NCBI RefSeq assembly: GCF_046105845.1
Contig: NZ_CP151004.1
Source: Escherichia coli
Lineage (GTDB): Bacteria; Pseudomonadota; Gammaproteobacteria; Enterobacterales; Enterobacteriaceae
Reading direction: 5' to 3' (one strand)
Length of the DNA stretch: 64,000 bases
Position 1 is the stretch's first letter. Each line of letters starts with the position of its first letter. Shown here one piece after another: positions 34,501 through 37,500 of the stretch. The position numbers are program-made.

Positions 34501-37500
34501 ACCGGTACCAGATCAGGAACCTGAGGCCTGATAACTGATAAGGGCAGGGCCACTGGCTCTGCCCTTTTGCTATTCTCACCGTAACGAATCAGCGGATACC
34601 ATGATTATCAAACGCACTCCTCAAGCCGCGTCGCCTCTGGCTTCGTGGCTTTCTTATCTGGAAAACCTGCACAGTAAAACTATCGATCTCGGCCTTGAGC
34701 GCGTGAGCCAGGTCGCGGCGCGTCTTGGCGTCCTGAAACCTGCGCCATTTGTGTTTACCGTTGCGGGTACGAATGGCAAAGGCACCACCTGCCGTACGCT
34801 GGAGTCGATTCTGATGGCGGCAGGGTACAAAGTGGGCGTCTACAGTTCACCGCATCTGGTGCGTTATACCGAGCGCGTACGTGTGCAGGGTCAGGAATTG
34901 CCGGAATCGGCCCACACCGCCTCTTTTGCGGAGATTGAATCGGCACGCGGTGATATTTCCCTGACCTATTTCGAGTACGGTACGCTGTCGGCGTTGTGGC
35001 TGTTCAAGCAGGCACAACTTGACGTGGTGATTCTGGAAGTAGGGCTGGGCGGTCGTCTGGACGCAACCAATATTGTCGATGCCGATGTCGCGGTAGTAAC
35101 CAGCATTGCGCTGGATCATACCGACTGGCTGGGGCCAGATCGCGAAAGCATTGGTCGCGAGAAAGCAGGCATCTTCCGCAGCGAAAAACCGGCAATTGTC
35201 GGTGAGCCGGAAATGCCTTCTACCATTGCTGATGTGGCGCAGGAAAAAAGTGCACTGTTACAACGTCGGGGCGTTGAGTGGAACTATTCCGTCACCGATC
35301 ATGACTGGACGTTTAGCGATGCTCACGGCACGCTGGAAAATCTGCCGTTGCCGCTTGTCCCGCAACCGAATGCCGCAACGGCGCTGGCGGCACTGCGTGC
35401 CAGCGGGCTGGAGGTCAGTGAAAATGCCATTCGCGACGGGATTGCCAGCGCAATTTTGCCGGGACGTTTCCAGATTGTGAGCGAGTCACCACGCGTTATT
35501 TTTGATGTCGCGCATAATCCACATGCGGCGGAATATCTCACCGGGCGTATGAAAGCGCTACCGAAAAACGGGCGCGTGCTGGCGGTTATCGGTATGCTAC
35601 ATGATAAAGATATTGCCGGAACTCTGGCCTGGTTGAAAAGCGTGGTTGATGACTGGTATTGTGCGCCACTGGAAGGGCCGCGCGGTGCCACGGCAGAACA
35701 ACTGCTTGAGCATTTGGGTAACGGCAAATCATTTGATAGCGTGGCGCAGGCATGGGATGCCGCAATGGCGGACGCTAAAGCGGAAGATACCGTGCTGGTG
35801 TGTGGTTCGTTCCACACGGTCGCACATGTCATGGAAGTGATTGACGCGAGGAGAAGCGGTGGCAAGTAAGTTTCAGAATCGGTTAGTGGGCACGATCGTG
35901 CTGGTGGCGCTGGGGGTGATTGTACTTCCAGGGCTGCTGGACGGGCAGAAAAAACATTATCAGGATGAGTTCGCGGCTATCCCGCTGGTGCCGAAAGCGG
36001 GCGATCGCGATGAGCCTGATATGATGCCAGCCGCCACCCAGGCGTTGCCGACGCAGCCGCCGGAAGGCGCAGCGGAAGAGGTGCGGGCAGGTGATGCCGC
36101 AGCACCGTCGCTCGATCCGGCCACTATTGCAGCCAATAACACCGAGTTTGAACCGGAACCTGCACCGGTCGTCCCACCGAAGCCGAAACCGGTGGAGCCG
36201 CCTAAGCCGAAGGTTGAAGCACCACCTGCGCCGAAGCCGGTCGTGGAAGAAAAAGCAGCGCCAACGGGTAAAGCCTATGTTGTACAACTGGGCGCACTGA
36301 AAAATGCCGATAAAGTGAATGAGATTGTCGGTAAGCTGCGCGGTGCCGGTTATCGGGTTTATACGTCGCCATCCACGCCAGTGCAGGGTAAAATTACCCG
36401 TATTCTGGTTGGGCCAGATGCCTCGAAAGATAAGCTGAAAGGATCGCTGGGTGAGTTGAAGCAACTTTCTGGCTTAAGTGGCGTGGTAATGGGCTACACG
36501 CCGAATTAATACGGTCTTGCCTGATGCGACGCTGGCGCGTCTTATCAGGCCTGCGCAGGAGTAGAACCGTAGGTCGGATAAGGCGTTTACGCCGCATCCG
36601 ACACGCATTGTCCGATGCCGCAAAGGCATAAAAAGTCGATGGCGTTGAATATTTTTTCAGCGCCATTTTTATTGATGCGCGGGAAGGAAATCCCTACGCA
36701 AACGTTTTCTTTTTCTGTTAGAATGCGCCCCGAACAGGATGACAGGGCGTAAAATCGTGGGACACATATGGTCTGGATTGATTACGCCATAATCGCGGTG
36801 ATTGCTTTTTCCTCTCTGGTTAGCCTGATCCGCGGCTTTGTTCGTGAAGCGTTATCGCTGGTGACATGGGGTTGTGCTTTCTTTGTTGCCAGTCATTACT
36901 ACACTTACCTGTCAGTCTGGTTTACGGGCTTTGAAGACGAACTGGTTCGAAATGGGATTGCCATCGCGGTACTATTTATCGCTACCCTGATCGTTGGTGC
37001 TATTGTGAACTTCGTGATAGGCCAGCTGGTGGAGAAAACGGGGTTGTCAGGCACCGATCGGGTGCTGGGCGTCTGTTTCGGTGCGTTGCGCGGTGTGTTG
37101 ATTGTTGCTGCCATTCTCTTCTTTCTCGACTCCTTTACCGGGGTGTCGAAAAGCGAAGACTGGAGCAAATCACAGCTGATCCCGCAGTTCAGTTTTATCA
37201 TCAGATGGTTTTTTGATTATCTGCAAAGCTCGTCAAGTTTCTTGCCCAGAGCGTAAGTGCTCTGAGATGTGGCTTAACGAGGAAAAAGACGTATGTGCGG
37301 TATTGTCGGTATCGCCGGTGTTATGCCGGTTAACCAGTCGATTTATGATGCCTTAACGGTGCTTCAGCATCGCGGTCAGGATGCCGCCGGCATCATCACC
37401 ATAGATGCCAATAACTGCTTCCGTTTGCGTAAAGCGAACGGGCTGGTGAGCGATGTATTTGAAGCTCGCCATATGCAGCGTTTGCAGGGCAATATGGGCA

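What the first reader, a model, noticed from the sequence alone, without database searches (positions are those of the whole stretch)
36518..36625. BIME/REP elements at 3' ends of several operons
Canonical REP palindromic units occur after dedD (a cluster of two to three), after yfcO, yfcL and fabB, and between yfbS and yfbR. This is typical for E. coli and serves mainly as a marker that the window is ordinary chromosome; they are not CRISPR repeats and have no spacers.
Basis: partly seen in the sequence, partly recalled or inferred. Interest (0 to 1): 0.1.

Follow-up and report, generated by a model that had tools for sequence, protein, structure and literature searches.

The report
Ordinary REP/BIME repeat after dedD
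The flagged stretch is one copy of a well-known E. coli intergenic repeat, a pair of inverted REP hairpins forming a BIME-2 unit, sitting just after the dedD gene; it is ordinary, although its copy number at this spot ranges from 0 to 6 among E. coli strains.

Summary
The 258-bp dedD–cvpA spacer contains two genuine REP palindromes. One is a z2-type unit at 36519-36554 (+), 36/37 identical to a published REP reference. The other is an inverted y-type unit at 36569-36602, 33/35 identical, and its two differences compensate each other in the stem. Together they make one 91-bp BIME-2 unit.

The possible "third" unit (36608-36629) is not a REP. It is conserved flank that remains in strains and genera lacking the repeat, and it shares only an 11-nt head-like direct repeat with REP1.

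REPs are also confirmed after yfcO, yfcL and fabB. The yfbS/yfbR site holds only two REP half-sites facing each other, not a canonical unit.

In a 60-row sample of 5,425 complete E. coli genomes, the dedD locus carries 0, 1 (about two-thirds, as here), 3, 4, 5 or 6 tandem units. In one strain IS621 sits exactly in the z2 REP at its known target.

The unit lies 9 nt after the dedD stop codon and upstream of an intrinsic terminator, so it is most likely a 3'UTR hairpin module maintained by a RAYT transposase. All of this matches published BIME-2 biology: already known, low interest.

The parts
36507..36509 (+). dedD stop codon (TAA), 9 nt upstream of the first REP stem
   Evidence: ORF 35841-36509, annotated dedD in matching genomes; sequence
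36517..36527 (+). Left copy of the 11-nt direct repeat TTGCCTGATGC. It is the head of REP1 and marks the boundary of the 91-bp unit.
   Evidence: Exactly 91 nt before the right copy at 36608-36618. Allele lengths across strains differ in steps of 91 bp at this junction.
36519..36554 (+). REP1, z2-type palindromic unit: GCCTGATGCGACGCTGGCGCGTCTTATCAGGC plus foot CTGC (consensus CTAC). In the Ton-Hoang convention this is a z2 'iREP' on the + strand.
   Evidence: 1 mismatch to the REP consensus; 36/37 to a published REP sequence; hairpin in RNA and DNA folds; nhmmer E=3.7e-14
36544..36554 (+). IS621 natural-target position inside REP1. The window has ATCAGGCCTGC, one mismatch from ATCAGGCCTAC.
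   Evidence: In strain B25FEP, IS621 is inserted at exactly this position, ATCAGGCCT|AC. Target sequence from PMC11208160.
36555..36568 (.). Short 14-nt linker (GCAGGAGTAGAACC) between the two REP feet, in tail-to-tail arrangement
   Evidence: Sequence. It is too short to hold the long L linker that defines BIME-1 and frequently carries an IHF site (definitions in PMC3333891).
36569..36602 (-). REP2, y-type palindromic unit. On the + strand it reads GTAG + GTCGGATAAGGCGTTTACGCCGCATCCGAC. The reverse complement matches the y consensus.
   Evidence: Inverted repeat I4; nhmmer E=1.8e-11; 33/35 to the published y REP, and the two differences (C->T and G->A) pair with each other in the stem; hairpin
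36608..36629 (+). Pseudo-'third REP': TTGTCCGATGCCGCAAAGGCAT. It is the right copy of the 11-nt direct repeat followed by a weak 5-bp hairpin. It is conserved flank, not a REP.
   Evidence: Retained in the E. coli allele that lacks the BIME (22AR0747). A related GCCCGAAGAGGCA-AAA motif is present in Klebsiella oxytoca and Pseudescherichia vulneris, which have no REP here. Weak fold of -4.4 kcal/mol. No profile hit.
36638..36675 (+). Intrinsic-terminator-like hairpin plus T-run, the likely 3' end of the folC-dedD transcript
   Evidence: Terminator scan: 12-pair stem then TTTTATT; hairpin in the MFE fold; conserved across Enterobacteriaceae
36694..36713 (+). PurR-box-containing segment (CTACGCAAACGTTTTCTTTT) of the cvpA-purF promoter region. 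It marks the start of the next transcription unit.
   Evidence: Exact 20-mer found upstream of cvpA homologues in at least 120 genomes of Enterobacterales and Pasteurellaceae. Its identity as the PurR operator is from my own knowledge of the purF operator.
18394..18429 (+). Solo z2-like REP between yfcO (DUF2544) and convergent smrB; no CTAC foot; absent from K-12 at this site
23715..23744 (-). Solo y-like REP between yfcL and convergent mnmC; no GTAG foot. K-12 has a z2+y pair here.
27165..27200 (-). REP after fabB with a GTAG foot on the + strand, upstream of the fabB terminator hairpin. The K-12 copy carries a 10-bp deletion.
58035..58067 (.). Two REP 'head' half-sites in inverted orientation between yfbS and yfbR. 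They form a hairpin (the DNA fold pairs 8 + 4 bp around one internal mismatch, 7-nt spacer between the arms); not a canonical REP.
   Evidence: (-16.4 kcal/mol, z=-5.2); nearly the same sequence in K-12

Best explanation
The flagged stretch is one BIME-2 unit, the E. coli form of a 'REPIN'. It consists of a z2 REP and an inverted y REP, tail to tail across a 14-nt linker, in the 3' untranslated region of the folC-dedD transcript.

Shown here:
- The sequence identity, the hairpin-forming potential and the dispersed multi-copy nature of the repeat.
- The 91-bp unit boundary, marked by an 11-nt direct repeat (TTGCCyGATGC).
- Copy number at this locus of 0 to 6 among E. coli strains, and 2 in E. 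albertii.
- Diverged REP-like palindromes at the same position in Citrobacter and Salmonella.

Inferred from published work on the family:
- At the DNA level, the REP-associated tyrosine transposase (RAYT, TnpA_REP) binds single-stranded REPs with a 5' GTAG foot and cleaves at C|T sites such as TGCC|TGAT. That is the sequence at this unit's left boundary. Units are then gained or lost by RAYT-mediated strand exchange, replication slippage or homologous recombination between the direct repeats.
- BIME-2 units, and mainly their y REPs, are transcription-independent strong gyrase cleavage sites.
- At the RNA level, the two stable hairpins just upstream of the intrinsic terminator act as barriers to 3'-to-5' exonucleases and as a partial transcription stop. 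This favours dedD over read-through into cvpA-purF.
- The first stem starts 9 nt after the dedD stop codon, inside the window of fewer than 16 nt in which REPs have been reported to lower translation of the upstream gene.

The local phenotypic effect is probably small, because alleles with 0 to 6 units all circulate.
For: Identity: consensus matches far above chance; near-identity to published REP sequences; hairpins with an internal mismatch; region MFE -85.3 kcal/mol against -58.2 +/- 4.3 for shuffles, z=-6.4.

Dispersal: median of 16 places per genome with the REPs and 1 without.

BIME-2 class: z2 + y, short linker, tandem copies, strain-variable number. This is the definition given in PMC3333891, and it is observed directly here: alleles of +0, +91, +273, +364, +455 and +546 bp, and TRF period 91 with 6.1 copies in MS20657.

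RAYT cleavage motif TGCC|TGAT at z iREP heads equals the unit boundary CTTGCC|TGATG.

Bona fide REP target: IS621 is inserted at ATCAGGCCT|AC of this REP in strain B25FEP.

Context: dedD stop 9 nt upstream; terminator 35 nt downstream of REP2.

Published functions: the <16-nt translation rule, terminator plus stabiliser role, gyrase cleavage.
Against: No expression, RNA-end, gyrase or RAYT data exist for this locus in this genome, so every functional statement is transferred from other REPs. [quoted passage not shown]

REP1's foot is CTGC rather than CTAC in this window. On the - strand this removes the GTAG that TnpA_REP needs for binding, so only REP2 (GTAG on the + strand) would be a competent binding site.

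A separate intrinsic terminator follows, so the REPs are not needed for termination.

Alleles with 0 units exist (about 2 of 60 sampled), which argues against any essential role. The window contains no RAYT gene.
Confidence: 0.93

Rival explanations
1. The hairpins are simply the Rho-independent terminator(s) of the folC-dedD operon and have no repeat-element nature.
For: They are GC-rich hairpins directly after a stop codon. REPs can attenuate transcription.
Against: Neither REP hairpin is followed by a T-run. The scan calls only 36638-36667, further downstream, as terminator-like. The same sequences recur at other loci in the window and about 16 times per genome at megablast stringency. The unit is absent or multiplied in other strains while the downstream terminator stays constant.
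Confidence: 0.03
2. It is a small or degenerate CRISPR array, or another spacer-bearing repeat array.
For: The repeats are palindromic and of roughly CRISPR-repeat length. In other strains the locus is a regular 91-bp array.
Against: The two copies in the window are inverted, not direct, and belong to two different subtypes. No tandem repeat is found in the window. In multi-unit alleles the inter-palindrome sequences are the same in every unit, so there are no unique spacers. The flanking genes are dedD and cvpA-purF, not cas genes.
Confidence: 0.005
3. It encodes a small protein or a structured non-coding RNA, such as an sRNA or riboswitch, with a dedicated function.
For: Minus-strand ORFs 36394-36666 (90 aa) and 36474-36629 (51 aa) overlap it. 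The region folds much better than shuffled sequence.
Against: No Rfam family reaches threshold anywhere near it; the only hit in the window is a tRNA at 1021-1092. Copy-number alleles differ by 91 bp, which is not a multiple of 3, and include complete deletion, so no reading frame is conserved. The fold is fully explained by the REP and terminator hairpins.
Confidence: 0.02
4. It is selfish or neutral DNA only. The unit is a parasitic REPIN whose presence here reflects a permissive insertion sink after dedD, with no effect on host expression.
For: Copy number drifts from 0 to 6 among strains with no obvious constraint. Different genera carry different palindrome families at the same spot: Citrobacter- and Salmonella-type REPs, and an unrelated long palindrome in Enterobacter cloacae. 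REP content at four other sites differs between this window and K-12.
Against: This is a rival only on 'function'. It agrees with the identity claimed in the best explanation. Published tests show measurable local effects of some REPs on mRNA and translation. The compensatory C-G to T-A change in REP2's stem preserves pairing.
Confidence: 0.35

Closest known systems
E. coli BIME-2 (bacterial interspersed mosaic element type 2: z2 + y REPs/palindromic units; Gilson, Bachellier and Hofnung nomenclature, summarised in Ton-Hoang et al. 2012, PMC3333891)
   Same: A z2 REP and an inverted y REP with a short linker, in an extragenic 3' position. The unit is tandemly amplifiable and its number varies between strains.
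   Different: This window has only one unit, and the z2 foot is CTGC rather than CTAC. I could not compare the linker and flank with the published S, s, l and r motif consensus sequences, which are in figures not held.
REPIN/RAYT system (Bertels & Rainey 2011; Nunvar et al. 2010; TnpA_REP/YafM of E. coli)
   Same: Two inverted REPs form the mobilisable doublet. REP2 has the GTAG foot and the stem mismatch needed for TnpA_REP binding. The unit boundary coincides with a TGCC|TGAT cleavage motif.
   Different: There is no RAYT gene in the window, and activity on this copy is untested.
REP325 (yjdM-yjdN) and other 3'UTR REPs studied as terminator/stabiliser elements (bioRxiv 10.64898/2026.03.23.713779)
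   Same: REP hairpins lie between an upstream gene and a co-oriented downstream gene, so both mRNA protection and read-through attenuation are possible.
   Different: REP325 lies within an operon, between its two genes. The dedD unit is a single unit, is followed by its own intrinsic terminator, and the downstream genes have their own PurR-controlled promoter.
IS621 (IS110 family, bridge-RNA recombinase) natural target sites in REPs
   Same: REP1 carries the target position. In strain B25FEP, IS621 sits exactly at ATCAGGCCT|AC of this very REP.
   Different: The window's copy reads ATCAGGCCTGC, a mismatch at target position 10, and contains no IS.

Membership tests
REP (repetitive extragenic palindrome / palindromic unit) of E. 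coli | 30-40-nt imperfect palindrome able to form a stem-loop | tested here: met
   14-nt arms, 86% complementary, loops of 4 and 2 nt. DNA hairpins of -11.6 and -11.9 kcal/mol, RNA hairpins in the MFE fold.
REP (repetitive extragenic palindrome / palindromic unit) of E. coli | Match to the REP consensus and to y/z subtypes | tested here: met
   REP1 has 1 mismatch to the 36-nt consensus against 0 expected matches. REP1 is 36/37 and REP2 33/35 identical to published REP sequences.
REP (repetitive extragenic palindrome / palindromic unit) of E. coli | Conserved GTAG (complement CTAC) tetranucleotide at the foot of the palindrome | tested here: inconclusive
   REP2 has GTAG at 36569-36572, so the feature is met there. 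REP1 has CTGC at 36551-36554 in this window, so it is not met, whereas K-12 and many strains have CTAC at the same position. This is a point substitution within an otherwise typical unit.
REP (repetitive extragenic palindrome / palindromic unit) of E. coli | Conserved mismatch (bubble) in the stem | tested here: met
   Both hairpins show the internal unpaired positions: GATGCG/CTTATC in REP1 and GATAAG/CGCATC in REP2. The requirement is described.
REP (repetitive extragenic palindrome / palindromic unit) of E. coli | Extragenic location and high, dispersed copy number in the genome | tested here: met
   It lies between the dedD stop and the cvpA start. There are five full REPs in 64 kb. A median of 16 megablast places per E. 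coli genome for a query containing it, against 1 without it.
BIME-2 | Composed of one z2 and one y REP in inverse orientation | tested here: met
   REP1 has GCCTGATG...TTATCAGGC (z2) and REP2 has GGATGCGGCGT...ACGCCTTATCC (y) on opposite strands. Definition.
BIME-2 | Short (S) linker rather than the long L linker of BIME-1, which frequently carries an IHF site | tested here: met
   The linker between the feet is 14 nt, too short for the long L linker of BIME-1. The sequence was not compared with the published S motif because the figure is not available.
BIME-2 | Occurs as tandem copies whose number varies between loci and strains | tested here: met
   The window has 1 unit. The same locus has 0, 1, 3, 4, 5 or 6 units of 91 bp in other E. 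coli and 2 in E. albertii.
BIME-2 | In vivo DNA gyrase binding and cleavage, preferentially in y REPs | not testable with these tools
   Literature only. This locus is not mentioned in the main text of that paper.
REPIN / RAYT-dependent element | Cognate RAYT (TnpA_REP) in the same genome that binds and cleaves the REP | not testable with these tools
   The window has no RAYT gene by synteny with K-12. The rest of the genome is not available.
CRISPR array | Direct repeats separated by unique spacers, usually with cas genes nearby | tested here: not met
   The copies are inverted. No tandem array is present. Inter-repeat sequences are identical in multi-unit alleles. No cas genes are nearby.

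The most novel reading that the evidence does not exclude
The 0-6 unit variation of this 91-bp BIME-2, whose first hairpin starts 9 nt after the dedD stop codon and just upstream of the PurR-controlled cvpA-purF operon, might act as a heritable, reversible 'dial'. It would set DedD (cell division) protein level and read-through into purine-biosynthesis genes differently in different E. coli lineages. It would then be a contingency-like regulatory locus rather than neutral repeat drift.
Probability: 0.08. Interest if true: 0.35.

Novelty: already known. Interest (0 to 1): 0.08.

Why it matters
It matters little. The result confirms that this part of the window is ordinary E. coli-type chromosome carrying textbook REP/BIME repeats.

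Three points are practically useful:
- The locus should not be mistaken for CRISPR, an sRNA gene or a small ORF.
- The dedD-cvpA spacer is a clean 91-bp variable-number locus (0-6 units) and could serve as a typing marker.
- It is a natural landing site for IS621, the bridge-RNA recombinase, which is relevant when predicting off-target or natural insertion sites in E. coli chassis strains. This window's copy has a one-base mismatch to that target.

Tried and rejected
Third REP: I considered 36608-36629 as a third REP and rejected it. It is retained in the unit-less allele and conserved in genera without REPs here. It gets no profile hit and folds weakly.

Annotation check: I looked for repeat_region annotation of REPs in the RefSeq K-12 record to cross-check the coordinates. 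The feature tables returned list none for these stretches, so I used consensus and profile searches instead.

Rfam: a gathering-threshold scan of the whole window found only one tRNA. This gives no REP or sRNA support either way.

Primary literature: I tried to read Liang, Rudd & Deutscher 2015 and Liang & Deutscher 2016 to see whether dedD is on their list. Neither paper is held, so the <16-nt rule is cited second-hand. dedD and cvpA are not mentioned in the REP325 preprint, the RepRanger paper or the gyrase-mapping paper.

Loose regex hits inside coding sequence (36012-36043, 49450-49486, 58836-58864, 63194-63206) were rejected as chance, because they got no profile support.

My E. coli REP profiles at E<=1e-3 missed the diverged REP-like palindromes of Citrobacter and Salmonella. 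These were seen only by reading the sequences, so 'REP absent' in other genera rests on inspection of a handful of loci, not a systematic test.

CRISPR, ORF and terminator-only readings were rejected, as set out under the rival explanations.
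Full report
**What is at the coordinates.** The flagged stretch, 36518-36625, lies in the 258-bp spacer between the dedD stop codon (TAA, 36507-36509; ORF 35841-36509) and the cvpA start (36768). The same genes are annotated in matching E. coli genomes. The window as a whole is collinear with, and in reverse orientation to, E. coli K-12 MG1655 2.403-2.467 Mb at 92-98% identity. The exception is a diverged yfc fimbrial operon. The repeat finder reports two imperfect palindromes, 36519-36532/36537-36550 and 36573-36586/36589-36602, each with 14-nt arms that are 86% complementary.

**Is it more than chance?** Yes.
- The classical 36-nt REP consensus matches three times in the window at three or fewer mismatches, against 0.00 expected. 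REP1 has a single mismatch.
- The two half-site patterns each give 7 matches, against 0.53 and 0.38 expected.
- Profile scans built from z2 and y units find five full REPs (36519-36554, 36569-36602, 27165-27200, 18394-18425/9, 23715-23744) and two half-sites at 58031-58068. Nothing else is convincing.
- REP1 is 36/37 identical to the REP sequence GCCTGATGCGACGCTGGCGCGTCTTATCAGGCCTACG used as a reference in the bridge-RNA paper.
- REP2, read on the minus strand, is 33/35 identical to TGCCGGATGCGGCGTAAACGCCTTATCCGGCCTAC from the same paper. Its two differences (GCCGG to GTCGG and CCGGC to CCGAC) face each other in the stem, so pairing is kept.
- A 501-nt query including the REPs hits a median of 16 places per E. 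coli genome. A 600-nt query of the same locus from a strain lacking them hits a median of 1. The dispersed-repeat property therefore belongs to the REPs themselves.

**Anatomy of the locus.** Reading 5' to 3' on the + strand:
- dedD stop codon, then 9 nt.
- z2 REP with foot CTGC (36519-36554).
- 14-nt linker (36555-36568).
- GTAG foot plus y REP (36569-36602).
- 5 nt of spacer.
- TTGTCCGATGCC...GGCAT (36608-36629).
- An intrinsic-terminator-like hairpin with a T-run (36638-36675).
- The cvpA-purF promoter region. It includes a PurR-box 20-mer that is conserved verbatim in at least 120 enterobacterial and pasteurellacean genomes.

As RNA, 36500-36685 folds to -85.3 kcal/mol, against -58.2 ± 4.3 for shuffles (z = -6.4). 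The fold has four hairpins: REP1, REP2, a weak 5-bp hairpin and the terminator.

**The "third" unit is not a REP.** Comparing alleles settles this. Strain 22AR0747 has a 167-bp spacer that reads ...GGTCTTGCCCGATGCCGCAAAGGCAT..., with no REP at all but with the 36608-36629 sequence intact. All other alleles equal this sequence plus n × 91 bp, inserted or deleted between two copies of an 11-nt direct repeat: TTGCCTGATGC at 36517-36527 and TTGyCCGATGC at 36608-36618, exactly 91 nt apart. The same flank, GCCCGAAGAGGCA-AAA followed by the terminator, is present in Klebsiella oxytoca and Pseudescherichia vulneris, which carry no REP here.

I sampled 60 rows evenly down the ranking of 5,425 genomes, using the unit-less allele as the query. 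The extra length at the junction was:
- 0 bp in 2 rows.
- 91-92 bp in 40 rows (one unit, as in this window and K-12).
- 68 bp in 1 row (one unit with a 23-bp internal deletion, as in GN03139).
- 162 bp in 2 rows (two units, the second truncated, as in E2348/69).
- 273 bp in 7 rows, 364 bp in 5, 455 bp in 1 and 546 bp in 1.

Tandem Repeats Finder gives period 91 and 6.1 copies in MS20657 and nothing in the window. The one row that could not be sized, strain B25FEP, has an IS621 element inserted at ...ATCAGGCCT|[IS621]...CT|ACGCAGG. That is the natural IS621 target ATCAGGCCTAC with its CT core. The window's copy reads ATCAGGCCTGC, one mismatch away.

**Beyond E. coli.** E. albertii and the divergent "E. 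coli E69" have two units. Two Citrobacter strains have a diverged z2-like plus y-like pair at the same position. Other Citrobacter strains have one y-like palindrome, Salmonella enterica arizonae has one z2-like palindrome, and Enterobacter cloacae has an unrelated long palindrome. The site after dedD is thus an old, repeatedly occupied niche for extragenic palindromes. The rare unit-less E. coli allele is more likely a secondary deletion between the direct repeats than an ancestral empty site. That last point is inference.

[quoted passage not shown] BIME-1 is z1 + y with a long L linker that frequently carries an IHF site (PMC3333891). Every testable feature of BIME-2 is met here. The one blemish is the CTAC-to-CTGC substitution at REP1's foot in this window; K-12 has CTAC. 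The same paper shows that TnpA_REP needs the 5' GTAG and the stem mismatch to bind, and that it cleaves iREP heads at TGCC|TGAT. That motif is the left boundary of the 91-bp unit (CTTGCC|TGATG). This is compatible with RAYT-mediated gain and loss of units, although slippage or homologous recombination would give the same products.

**How it most likely works.** Identity as a REP/BIME-2 unit is essentially certain. Function is inferred from other REPs.
1. The unit lies upstream of the terminator, so it is probably transcribed as part of the folC-dedD 3'UTR. There the two hairpins can impede 3' exonucleases and attenuate read-through, the dual role shown for REP325.
2. The first stem begins 9 nt after the stop codon, within the window of fewer than 16 nt in which REPs were reported to reduce translation of the upstream gene (Liang et al. 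2015, as summarised in PMC12306157).
3. BIME-2 elements, mainly their y REPs, are transcription-independent gyrase cleavage sites (PMC6379681).

Against a strong local role: alleles with 0 to 6 units coexist, a separate terminator is present, and the preprint stresses that REP effects depend on context. I put about one-third weight on the view that the unit has no measurable effect on the host at this locus.

- After yfcO: confirmed. A z2-like REP at 18394-18429 lies 22 nt after a DUF2544 ORF and 11 nt before convergent smrB. K-12 has no REP there.
- After yfcL: confirmed. It is a single y-like REP without a GTAG foot, whereas K-12 has a full z2 + y pair.
- After fabB: confirmed. It has a GTAG foot and lies upstream of the fabB terminator, and the K-12 copy has a 10-bp deletion.
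- Between yfbS and yfbR: only partly confirmed. The 58-bp spacer holds two REP head halves, GCCGGATGCGAC on the minus strand and GCCTGATGCGAC on the plus strand, facing each other. They form an inside-out hairpin of -16.4 kcal/mol (z = -5.2). The sequence is nearly the same in K-12, differing at one base within the spacer. It looks like the remnant of a head-to-head REP pair whose outer halves were lost, not a canonical unit.

**Rivals rejected.**
- CRISPR: the copies are inverted, there are no unique spacers and there are no cas genes.
- Terminator only: the REP hairpins have no T-run, and the copies are dispersed.
- sRNA or ORF: there is no Rfam hit, and 91-bp indels and complete loss destroy any reading frame.

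**Verdict.** The element is a textbook, already-described kind of repeat, so interest is low.

Noticed in passing
L012 2123-3661 (E. coli B25FEP, NZ_CM177971.1), corresponding to window 36544-36554: An IS621 element (IS110 family, bridge-RNA recombinase) is inserted in the z2 REP of this same dedD-cvpA BIME, at ATCAGGCCT|AC with CT at both junctions. This matches the published natural target. The window's copy has ATCAGGCCTGC, one mismatch away.
   Followed up: yes
window 36517-36618; loci L005-L011, L013, L014: The dedD-cvpA spacer is a clean 91-bp variable-number locus with 0, 1, 3, 4, 5 or 6 units, plus variants with 23-bp or about 20-bp internal deletions. Roughly two-thirds of a 60-row sample of 5,425 complete E. 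coli genomes have one unit.
   Followed up: yes
window 18394-18429, 23715-23744, 27165-27200 versus L004 (K-12): REP content differs between this genome and K-12 at three of the other sites. The yfcO/smrB REP is present only in the window. At yfcL/mnmC the window has one REP and K-12 has a pair. The fabB REP is intact in the window and has a 10-bp deletion in K-12.
   Followed up: partly
window 58024-58082: The yfbS/yfbR spacer holds two REP head halves in inverted orientation, forming a strong 'inside-out' hairpin (-16.4 kcal/mol, z=-5.2). It is nearly the same in K-12 (one base differs in the spacer). It is possibly the remnant of a head-to-head REP pair trimmed on both outer sides, or a product of recombination between REPs.
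   Followed up: partly
window 11891-17525 (and unaligned 11259-11891, 17525-18072): The yfc chaperone-usher fimbrial operon is only about 73% identical to the K-12 operon, while the flanks are 92-98% identical. This indicates a divergent allele or replacement of the fimbrial cluster.
   Followed up: no
window 28000-52000: No complete RefSeq E. coli genome (5,426 genomes) is 99% or more identical over these 24 kb; the best is 98.9%. For the 501-bp dedD-cvpA piece the best hit is strain ST2747 at 99.2%. The source is therefore an Escherichia lineage (or Shigella or similar) not closely represented in that collection.
   Followed up: partly
L020 (Enterobacter cloacae DSM 26481), spacer after dedD: At the same position after dedD, E. 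cloacae carries a different, long, near-perfect palindrome: CCCTCACCCTAACCCTAACCCTCTCCCC TTTG GGGAGAGGGTTAGGGTTAGGGTGAGGG. Different genera fill this site with different extragenic palindrome families.
   Followed up: no
window 36694-36713: The 20-mer CTACGCAAACGTTTTCTTTT, containing the PurR box upstream of cvpA-purF, is conserved exactly in at least 120 species representatives. They range from Escherichia to Yersinia, Erwinia, Edwardsiella and Pasteurellaceae (Haemophilus, Pasteurella, Actinobacillus).
   Followed up: partly
window 1-1092: The window starts inside a homologue of the CPS-53 prophage integrase gene intS (96% identical to K-12), next to a tRNA at 1021-1092 (-) that corresponds to argW by synteny. 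This is a classic tRNA-linked integration site.
   Followed up: no
window 36394-36666 (-) and 36474-36629 (-): Mechanical ORFs of 90 and 51 aa run through the REPs on the minus strand. They are almost certainly spurious, because 91-bp copy-number changes and complete deletion of the unit occur among strains.
   Followed up: partly
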